Part shown: piece after piece, positions 391 to 1,141 of the stretch | How the letters are laid out: every line of letters starts with the position of its first letter | Numbering within the stretch: position 1 is the stretch's first letter | NCBI RefSeq assembly: GCF_030013595.1 | Contig: NZ_CP122768.1 | Length of the DNA stretch: 64,000 nt | Reading direction: 5' to 3' (one strand) | DNA from: Escherichia coli | GTDB taxonomy: Bacteria; Pseudomonadota; Gammaproteobacteria; Enterobacterales; Enterobacteriaceae | The notes under the pieces: model-generated | Told to the model about the DNA's origin: nothing | Databases searched by the model: none | The model's input: only the letters and a program-made list of their open reading frames with translations | Translations under genes and position numbers: made by a program

Positions 391-1107
391 ATGCGTCCAG
401 CAGGCCGTAGCAATAATCAGGTGCGTCCCGTTACCCTGACTCGTAACTATACAAAACATGCAGAAGGCTCGGTGCTGGTCGAATTTGGCGATACCAAAGT
501 ATTGTGTACCGCCTCTATTGAAGAAGGCGTGCCGCGCTTCCTGAAAGGTCAGGGCCAGGGCTGGATCACCGCAGAGTACGGCATGCTGCCACGTTCTACC
601 CACACCCGTAACGCGCGTGAAGCGGCGAAAGGTAAGCAGGGTGGACGCACCATGGAAATCCAGCGTCTGATCGCCCGTGCTCTTCGTGCGGCAGTAGATT
701 TGAAAGCGCTGGGTGAGTTCACTATTACGCTGGACTGCGACGTGCTTCAGGCTGATGGTGGCACGCGTACCGCTTCGATTACGGGTGCCTGCGTGGCGCT
801 GGCAGATGCGCTACAGAAGCTGGTGGAAAACGGTAAGCTGAAAACCAATCCGATGAAAGGGATGGTAGCCGCGGTTTCTGTCGGGATTGTGAACGGCGAA
901 GCGGTTTGCGATCTGGAATACGTTGAAGACTCTGCCGCAGAGACCGACATGAACGTAGTGATGACCGAAGACGGGCGCATCATTGAAGTGCAGGGGACGG
1001 CAGAAGGCGAACCGTTCACCCACGAAGAATTACTCACCTTGTTGGCGCTGGCCCGAGGGGGAATCGAATCCATTGTAGCGACGCAGAAGGCGGCGCTGGC
1101 AAACTGA
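391..1107 (+). CDS. rph: Ribonuclease PH, full-length 238 aa
   Basis: ORF 367..1107 contains [42 protein letters not shown]; start placed at internal ATG 391; ends ...[13 protein letters not shown]. Confidence 0.94.
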
Positions 1108-1113
1108 TTTTTA

Positions 1114-1141
1114 AGGCGACTGATGAGTCGCCTTTTTTTTG
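1114..1141 (+). promoter_or_regulatory. pyrE attenuator: GC-rich hairpin followed by T8 run between rph stop and pyrE start
   Basis: aggcgact-gatg-agtcgcc hairpin then tttttttt directly after rph stop; position matches the known UTP-sensitive rph-pyrE attenuator. Confidence 0.75.

What the first reader, a model, noticed from the sequence alone, without database searches (positions are those of the whole stretch)
391..1141. rph is intact, so the pyrE attenuator context is wild-type
rph encodes the full 238-aa protein ending ...ATQKAALAN, with its stop 6 bp before the attenuator hairpin. The common K-12 laboratory lineages carry the rph-1 frameshift that reduces pyrE expression through altered coupling at this attenuator. 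With the LPS and accessory differences, this argues the window is not from an MG1655/W3110-type strain.
Basis: partly seen in the sequence, partly recalled or inferred. Interest (0 to 1): 0.25.

Follow-up and report, generated by a model that had tools for sequence, protein, structure and literature searches.

The report
Intact rph gene, normal pyrE attenuator
The window carries the ordinary, undamaged form of the E. coli rph-pyrE operon, the form found in about 95% of sequenced E. coli; the rph-1 frameshift of the laboratory strains MG1655 and W3110 is absent, which is correct but unremarkable.

Summary
Window 391-1107 (+) is a 238-aa RNase PH ORF ending ...ATQKAALAN. Its TGA (1105-1107) lies 5 nt before a 9-bp hairpin (1113-1134) followed by a T-run to 1140. 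pyrE starts at 1173.

Aligned with MG1655, the window has five G at 1057-1061 where MG1655 has four. That missing G is the rph-1 deletion, which gives the 228-aa product ...ARGESNPL*. From 1048 to 1200, G-run apart, the two sequences are identical, so this is the attenuator characterised in K-12, with the wild-type stop position.

The state is the norm. The 5-G 43-mer is exact in 5,177 of 5,420 matching complete E. coli genomes; the 4-G 42-mer is exact in 168, nearly all MG1655/W3110/BW25113/J53-type laboratory strains. In 118 other Enterobacterales genomes the rph stop lies 2-7 nt before the terminator stem, which shows compensatory changes.

One caveat on the interpretation. Many K-12 strains (C600, DH5alpha, DH1, DH10B, MC4100) are rph+ on the K-12 backbone, so an intact rph alone does not exclude K-12. 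The 16 substitutions in rph, the non-K-12 waa core genes and several accessory blocks do. Already known; low interest.

The parts
1..264 (-). 5' part of yicC, divergent from rph (context only)
   Evidence: Annotated yicC at the same coordinates in the collinear record NZ_CM149870.1.
349..354 (+). Perfect TATAAT hexamer upstream of rph; a candidate -10 element, not verified
   Evidence: Read directly from the sequence. The consensus scan reported no full two-hexamer promoter here, so the assignment is an inference.
379..382 (+). GGAG ribosome-binding site of rph, 8 nt before the ATG
   Evidence: Sequence.
391..1107 (+). rph, intact RNase PH gene (238 aa plus TGA)
   Evidence: Two amino-acid differences from the K-12 rph+ sequence (A138V, T216I; window residue first).
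1057..1061 (+). Run of five G, the site where rph-1 lacks one G-C pair
   Evidence: Alignment with MG1655; position computed. The 5-G 43-mer is exact in 5,177 of 5,420 matching genomes; the 4-G 42-mer is exact in 168.
1076..1078 (+). Out-of-frame TAG that becomes the stop codon in rph-1; not used here
   Evidence: Translation of MG1655 and simulated deletion of one G in the window. It lies 34 nt upstream of the hairpin.
1105..1107 (+). rph stop codon TGA, 5 nt before the first paired base of the attenuator
1113..1134 (+). pyrE attenuator hairpin: 9-bp stem (5 G-C pairs), loop GAUG
   Evidence: Identical to MG1655. Conserved, with compensatory changes, in 118 Enterobacterales genomes.
1133..1140 (+). 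T-run of the intrinsic terminator (its first two T also close the stem)
1160..1165 (+). GAGGAG ribosome-binding site of pyrE, 7 nt before the ATG
   Evidence: Sequence.
1173..1814 (+). pyrE, orotate phosphoribosyltransferase (213 aa)
   Evidence: TIGR00336, 240.6 bits. One difference from MG1655 (K199E; window residue first).

Best explanation
This is the wild-type rph-pyrE operon of a non-K-12 E. coli. rph encodes full-length RNase PH. pyrE, 65 nt downstream, has no room for a promoter of its own: only 32 nt separate the T-run from the ATG. It must therefore be transcribed by read-through of the intercistronic intrinsic terminator, the attenuator.

The published K-12 mechanism runs as follows. 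Read-through depends on a ribosome translating the end of rph close behind RNA polymerase. When UTP is low the polymerase slows, the ribosome catches up and reaches the stop codon. From there it covers the 5' arm of the hairpin, so the terminator cannot form and pyrE is transcribed.

Here the stop (1105-1107) lies 5 nt before the stem. A terminating ribosome, which by established toeprint geometry covers roughly 13-15 nt past the P-site codon, would occlude about 1113-1118. In rph-1 strains the ribosome stops at the TAG equivalent to 1076-1078, 34 nt before the stem, the hairpin forms and pyrE is under-expressed.

Shown here: the intact ORF, the geometry, identity to the K-12 attenuator, species-wide prevalence and cross-species conservation. 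Inferred from the literature: UTP-sensitive coupling, RNase PH activity and normal OPRTase levels in this strain.
For: The ORF is intact and matches the family over its full length. MG1655 differs by a single-G deletion in the G-run. The hairpin plus T-run is significant against shuffles. Apart from the G-run, columns 688-840 of the alignment (window 1048-1200) are identical to MG1655. No sigma-70-like site was found between the hairpin and pyrE.

In the window and 118 other Enterobacterales genomes the stop-to-stem spacer is 2-7 nt (97 of 119 sequences at 4-5 nt), while the whole intercistronic length ranges from 57 to 200 nt, so insertions occur only downstream of the terminator. Stem positions covary: AAG..CTT in 66 genomes, AGG..CCT in 19, AAA..TTT in 8, AGA..TCT in 2, and GCGGC..GCCGC in 1.

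For the mechanism and the rph-1 phenotype: Jensen 1993 and Bonekamp 1984, as summarised in PMC11148124, PMC2784333 and PMC5933015.
Against: Nothing in the sequence contradicts this reading. Three limits remain. No expression or enzyme data exist for this strain. A stop codon a few nt from an intrinsic terminator is also seen at ordinary gene ends: pyrE's own stop lies 7 nt before the hairpin at 1822-1845, so the spacing alone does not prove coupling. The original mechanistic papers (PMC204738, PMC557777, PMC2415746) were not held in the library, so their content is cited second-hand or from my own knowledge.
Confidence: 0.93

Rival explanations
1. The hairpin at 1113-1134 is only the terminator of rph, with no regulatory role, and pyrE is expressed independently of rph translation.
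For: Close stop-to-terminator spacing is common at ordinary gene ends; pyrE's own stop lies 7 nt from the 1822-1845 hairpin. In some species 100-200 nt lie between the terminator and pyrE, which could hold a promoter.
Against: In the window only 32 nt separate the T-run from the pyrE ATG, and no promoter-like site is found there. The sequence is identical to the K-12 attenuator. In K-12, moving the rph stop changes pyrE expression and growth: the rph-1 allele, the recurrent 82-bp deletion that moves the stop next to the loop, and true reversion of rph-1 (PMC2784333; PMC5933015).
Confidence: 0.03
2. The window comes from an rph+ K-12 laboratory lineage (C600, DH5alpha or DH10B type), so the intact rph says nothing about a natural-isolate origin.
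For: Many K-12 strains carry the 5-G allele (PMC11148124).
Against: Those strains are 100% identical to the repaired MG1655 sequence. The window differs from that sequence at 16 positions in rph. It is 92-98% identical to MG1655 elsewhere, with whole blocks that are unmatched or absent. Its best matches are pig and human isolates.
Confidence: 0.01
3. The fifth G is an assembly or homopolymer error, and the strain really carries an rph-1-like frameshift.
For: The 4-G state occurs outside K-12, in E. coli 2015C-3101 (flagged 'frameshifted') and in Kluyvera genomosp. 3 YDC799. The run is therefore either mutable or error-prone.
Against: 5 G is the state in about 95% of complete genomes, including the two records identical to the window over 391-1173. 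Nothing in the window suggests low quality at this site.
Confidence: 0.02

Closest known systems
E. coli rph-pyrE operon with its UTP-modulated intercistronic attenuator (Poulsen/Bonekamp/Jensen; rph+ allele as in K-12 C600, DH1, DH10B and MC4100)
   Same: Same gene order, same 238-aa length and C-terminus, same G5 run. Stop codon, spacer, hairpin, T-run and pyrE leader are identical; apart from the G-run, window 1048-1200 equals MG1655.
   Different: 16 substitutions in rph, two of them amino-acid changes (A138V, T216I), and one in pyrE (K199E) (window residue first). None touches the attenuator.
rph-1 allele of MG1655/W3110 (Jensen 1993)
   Same: Same locus and same attenuator sequence downstream of the G-run.
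   Different: rph-1 has four G instead of five. This gives a 228-aa inactive product and a stop 34 nt, rather than 5 nt, before the hairpin. The window lacks the deletion.
rph-pyrE loci of other Enterobacterales (Salmonella, Citrobacter, Klebsiella, Kluyvera, Enterobacter and others)
   Same: The rph C-terminus ...QKAAL(E/A)N is followed after 2-7 nt by a GC-rich stem built on a GCGAC core, a T-run, and then pyrE.
   Different: Loop sequence, outer stem pairs (with compensatory changes) and the length of the segment between the terminator and pyrE (total intercistronic length 57-200 nt).

Membership tests
RNase PH (NCBIfam TIGR01966 equivalog; Pfam PF01138 + PF03725) | Full-length match above the curated cut-off | tested here: met
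   380.8 bits against a cut-off of 141.5; protein residues 2-236 on profile positions 1-235 of 236.
RNase PH (NCBIfam TIGR01966 equivalog; Pfam PF01138 + PF03725) | Both RNase PH domains present, with the C-terminal 10 residues that rph-1 loses | tested here: met
   PF01138 at residues 10-140 and PF03725 at 157-222. The C-terminus ...[16 protein letters not shown] is identical to repaired K-12.
RNase PH (NCBIfam TIGR01966 equivalog; Pfam PF01138 + PF03725) | Phosphorolytic 3' exoribonuclease activity | not testable with these tools
   Needs an enzyme assay.
rph-pyrE intercistronic attenuator | rph and pyrE adjacent on the same strand, with a GC-rich hairpin plus U-run between them | tested here: met
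rph-pyrE intercistronic attenuator | rph stop codon within a ribosome's reach of the 5' arm of the hairpin | tested here: met
   5-nt spacer; 2-7 nt in 118 other genomes.
rph-pyrE intercistronic attenuator | Sequence identity to the experimentally studied K-12 attenuator | tested here: met
   Identical from the G-run through the pyrE start.
rph-pyrE intercistronic attenuator | No independent promoter between the terminator and pyrE | tested here: met
   A 32-nt gap with no sigma-70-like match. This is a consensus scan only.
rph-pyrE intercistronic attenuator | Read-through modulated by UTP and by translation of the rph 3' end | not testable with these tools
   Known for K-12 from the literature; not measured for this strain.
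rph-1 allele | Loss of one G-C pair from the G5 run, giving a 228-aa product ending ...ARGESNPL | tested here: not met
   The window has G5 at 1057-1061 and a 238-aa product.
E. coli K-12 lineage | K-12 backbone sequence at rph-pyrE and K-12-type waa outer-core genes | tested here: not met
   16 substitutions against the K-12 rph+ sequence, which K-12 strains match at 100%. Window 11680-17783 has no match in MG1655.

The most novel reading that the evidence does not exclude
The G5 run in rph may be a recurrent slippage site. If so, rph-1-like frameshifts arise and revert in natural Enterobacterales, acting as a crude heritable switch that lowers pyrE expression and removes RNase PH. The same 4-G state is seen in a clinical E. 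coli (2015C-3101) and in a Kluyvera genome. The window itself simply carries the 'on' state.
Probability: 0.04. Interest if true: 0.3.

Novelty: already known. Interest (0 to 1): 0.05.

Why it matters
It matters only as a strain marker and an annotation check. It shows that the window is not from the MG1655/W3110/BW25113 branch, and that the strain should lack the partial pyrimidine starvation peculiar to those laboratory strains. The cross-species survey adds a small comparative confirmation that the stop-to-terminator spacing and the stem are conserved across Enterobacterales. It does not open any new question.

Tried and rejected
1. Rfam scan of the whole window at gathering thresholds. Nothing matched in 391-1173; the only hit was a JUMPstart element upstream of waaQ. 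There is thus no curated RNA family to test the attenuator against.

2. Column-wise covariation on the MAFFT alignment of 119 stop-to-terminator segments (A2). MAFFT misaligned the short-loop variants, so I did not use the count of structure pairs or fold_alignment on it. Instead I anchored on the GCGRC core in a script.

3. Attempts to read the primary papers (Jensen 1993, PMC204738; Bonekamp 1984, PMC557777; Turnbough and Switzer 2008, PMC2415746). None is held in the library, so the mechanism is cited through later open-access papers.

4. The consensus promoter scan did not report an rph promoter. Only a perfect TATAAT at 349-354 is visible, so I make no promoter claim.

5. I looked for an exact source genome. 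None of the 5,426 complete E. coli genomes is identical across the window. The closest is pig isolate HCP5S3_I2 (99.1-99.98% by segment), which has an extra IS200.

6. The K-12 rph+ origin was considered and rejected.

Full report
**Observation.** The region reads exactly as described. The ATG at 391 is preceded by GGAG at 379-382 and opens a 238-codon frame ending ...ATQKAALAN, with TGA at 1105-1107. The protein matches the RNase PH equivalog model TIGR01966 from end to end (380.8 bits against a cut-off of 141.5) and carries both Pfam RNase PH domains. A RefSeq record whose DNA is 100% identical over 391-1173 annotates the same coordinates as rph, followed by pyrE.

After the stop come five T (1108-1112). 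Then comes a 9-bp stem, AAGGCGACU / AGUCGCCUU (1113-1121 and 1126-1134), with loop GAUG and a T-run to 1140. Its dG is -17.3 kcal/mol and z = -4.07, and none of 200 shuffles folds as well. The terminator scan reports the same element. pyrE starts at 1173 behind GAGGAG (1160-1165) and encodes a 213-aa protein that matches TIGR00336.

**The requested test.** I aligned window 361-1200 with the MG1655 locus (NC_000913.3, rph annotated 'truncated RNase PH'). There is a single indel: MG1655 reads CCCGA-GGGGAATC and the window reads CCCGAGGGGGAATC. The window thus has five G at 1057-1061 and MG1655 has four. By my recollection of Jensen 1993, rph-1 is the loss of one G-C pair from a run of five. The MG1655 frame ends ...ALARGESNPL* at 228 aa. 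Deleting one G from the window in silico gives the same ending, using the TAG at 1076-1078. Apart from the G-run, window 1048-1200 is identical to MG1655, so the attenuator is the one studied experimentally in K-12.

**How common this is.** The 43-mer carrying five G is exact in 5,177 of 5,420 matching complete E. coli genomes. The 42-mer carrying four G is exact in 168. Of the 60 records listed for the four-G allele, all but one are MG1655, W3110, BW25113, J53, HMS174 or similar laboratory strains. An intact rph is therefore the species norm, and rph-1 is the oddity.

**Mechanism.** Only 32 nt lie between the T-run and the pyrE ATG, and no promoter-like site is found there. pyrE must therefore be transcribed through the terminator.

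- Published model: read-through needs tight coupling of rph translation to transcription. Premature termination of translation in rph-1 lowers OPRTase and causes partial pyrimidine starvation (PMC11148124).
- Supporting genetics: MG1655 evolving in minimal media repeatedly acquires an 82-bp deletion that moves the rph stop next to the attenuator loop (PMC2784333). True reversion of rph-1 improves growth (PMC5933015).
- Geometry in the window: a ribosome at the TGA would, by standard toeprint geometry (established knowledge), cover roughly the first six bases of the 5' arm. A ribosome at the rph-1 TAG would end more than 20 nt short of it.
- Status of the claims: these last steps are inference from sequence plus literature. 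Nothing was measured for this strain.

**Comparative support.** A degenerate pattern for the pyrE N-terminus retrieved 120 species-level genomes of Enterobacterales. In 118 of them a canonical rph C-terminus lies upstream of pyrE. Taken together with the window (119 sequences), the spacer from the stop to the first paired base is 2-7 nt, with 97 of the 119 sequences at 4-5 nt. Stems are 7-12 bp with 4-7 G-C pairs in all but one sequence (Budvicia diplopodorum, L026). The total intercistronic length ranges from 57 to 200 nt. All length variation therefore lies downstream of the terminator.

Stem positions covary: AAG...CTT in 66 genomes, AGG...CCT in 19, AAA...TTT in 8, AGA...TCT in 2, and one GCGGC...GCCGC. 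A caveat applies. Close spacing between a stop and a terminator also occurs at ordinary gene ends, so the spacing is consistent with coupling but does not prove it.

**Strain inference.** The conclusion that the window is not MG1655/W3110-like is right, but the rph state is the weakest part of the argument. Many K-12 strains match the repaired K-12 sequence at 100%, including C600, DH5alpha, DH1, DH10B, MC4100, NCM3722, BW2952 and RV308. JM83 is also reported as rph+. Several other differences do exclude K-12:

- 16 substitutions in rph, giving A138V and T216I (window residue first).
- 92-98% identity to MG1655 elsewhere in the window.
- No MG1655 match for 11680-17783, which holds outer-core waa genes in an R1/R4-like order.
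- An extra YadA-like adhesin block at 37388-43458.
- Absence of the rhsA-yibG block.
- A different 57196-63785 segment.

The nearest complete genome is a UK pig isolate (99.1-99.98% by segment), which differs by an IS200 insertion. No genome in the collection is identical.

**Verdict.** Novelty: already known. Interest: very low. The only mildly interesting by-product is that the same 4-G frameshift appears in a non-K-12 clinical E. coli and in a Kluyvera genome. That could be recurrent slippage or simply homopolymer sequencing error.

Noticed in passing
window 12835-13830 (+), stop at 13135-13137: The GT8 glycosyltransferase gene after waaO (waaT-like, R1/R4-type outer core) has TAC changed to TAG (FWS*ATYF) relative to pig strain HCP5S3_I2. 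The outer-core gene is probably inactivated. In the pig strain the other GT8 gene is the one flagged 'internal stop', and that gene is intact in the window (14555-15583).
   Followed up: partly
window 57236-58315 (-): A gene annotated 'type I restriction endonuclease' in the related record is split in the window into two ORFs of 174 and 178 aa by a single AAA to TAA change.
   Followed up: partly
window ~5740 (between rpmG and mutM): The closest complete genome (NZ_CM149870.1) has an IS200/IS605 tnpA insertion of about 680 bp here. The window lacks it.
   Followed up: partly
window 37410-42173 (-) and 42217-42900 (-): A YadA-like trimeric autotransporter adhesin (1587 aa) and a SadB/YajI-like lipoprotein lie between lldP and yibL. 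Both are absent from MG1655. The adhesin is about 158 aa shorter than in the pig strain, with the difference in an internally repetitive stretch around 40068-40788.
   Followed up: partly
window ~50107-50140, and 57196-63785: The MG1655 rhsA-yibA-yibJ-yibG block is absent between yibH and yibF. The segment after aldB carries a restriction-endonuclease-like gene, HicA/HicB, a GH127 hydrolase and an MFS transporter where MG1655 has yiaW-yiaT.
   Followed up: partly
window 8726-8764 (+): A JUMPstart RNA element (RF01707, 51 bits) lies upstream of waaQ, as expected for an RfaH-dependent waa operon.
   Followed up: no
L126 (NZ_CP027221.1, E. coli 2015C-3101) 1201-1242; L073 (Kluyvera genomosp. 3 YDC799) 4120-4150: The same 4-G rph-1-like frameshift occurs outside K-12: in a 5.3-Mb human stool isolate (RefSeq flags rph 'frameshifted') and in a Kluyvera complete genome (product also ends ...ARGESNPL). 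This is either recurrent slippage in the G5 run or homopolymer sequencing error.
   Followed up: partly
L026 (Budvicia diplopodorum) 2906-2965: This is the only one of 119 rph-pyrE loci in which no clean terminator stem follows the rph stop. The 3' arm is altered and there is no T-run.
   Followed up: no
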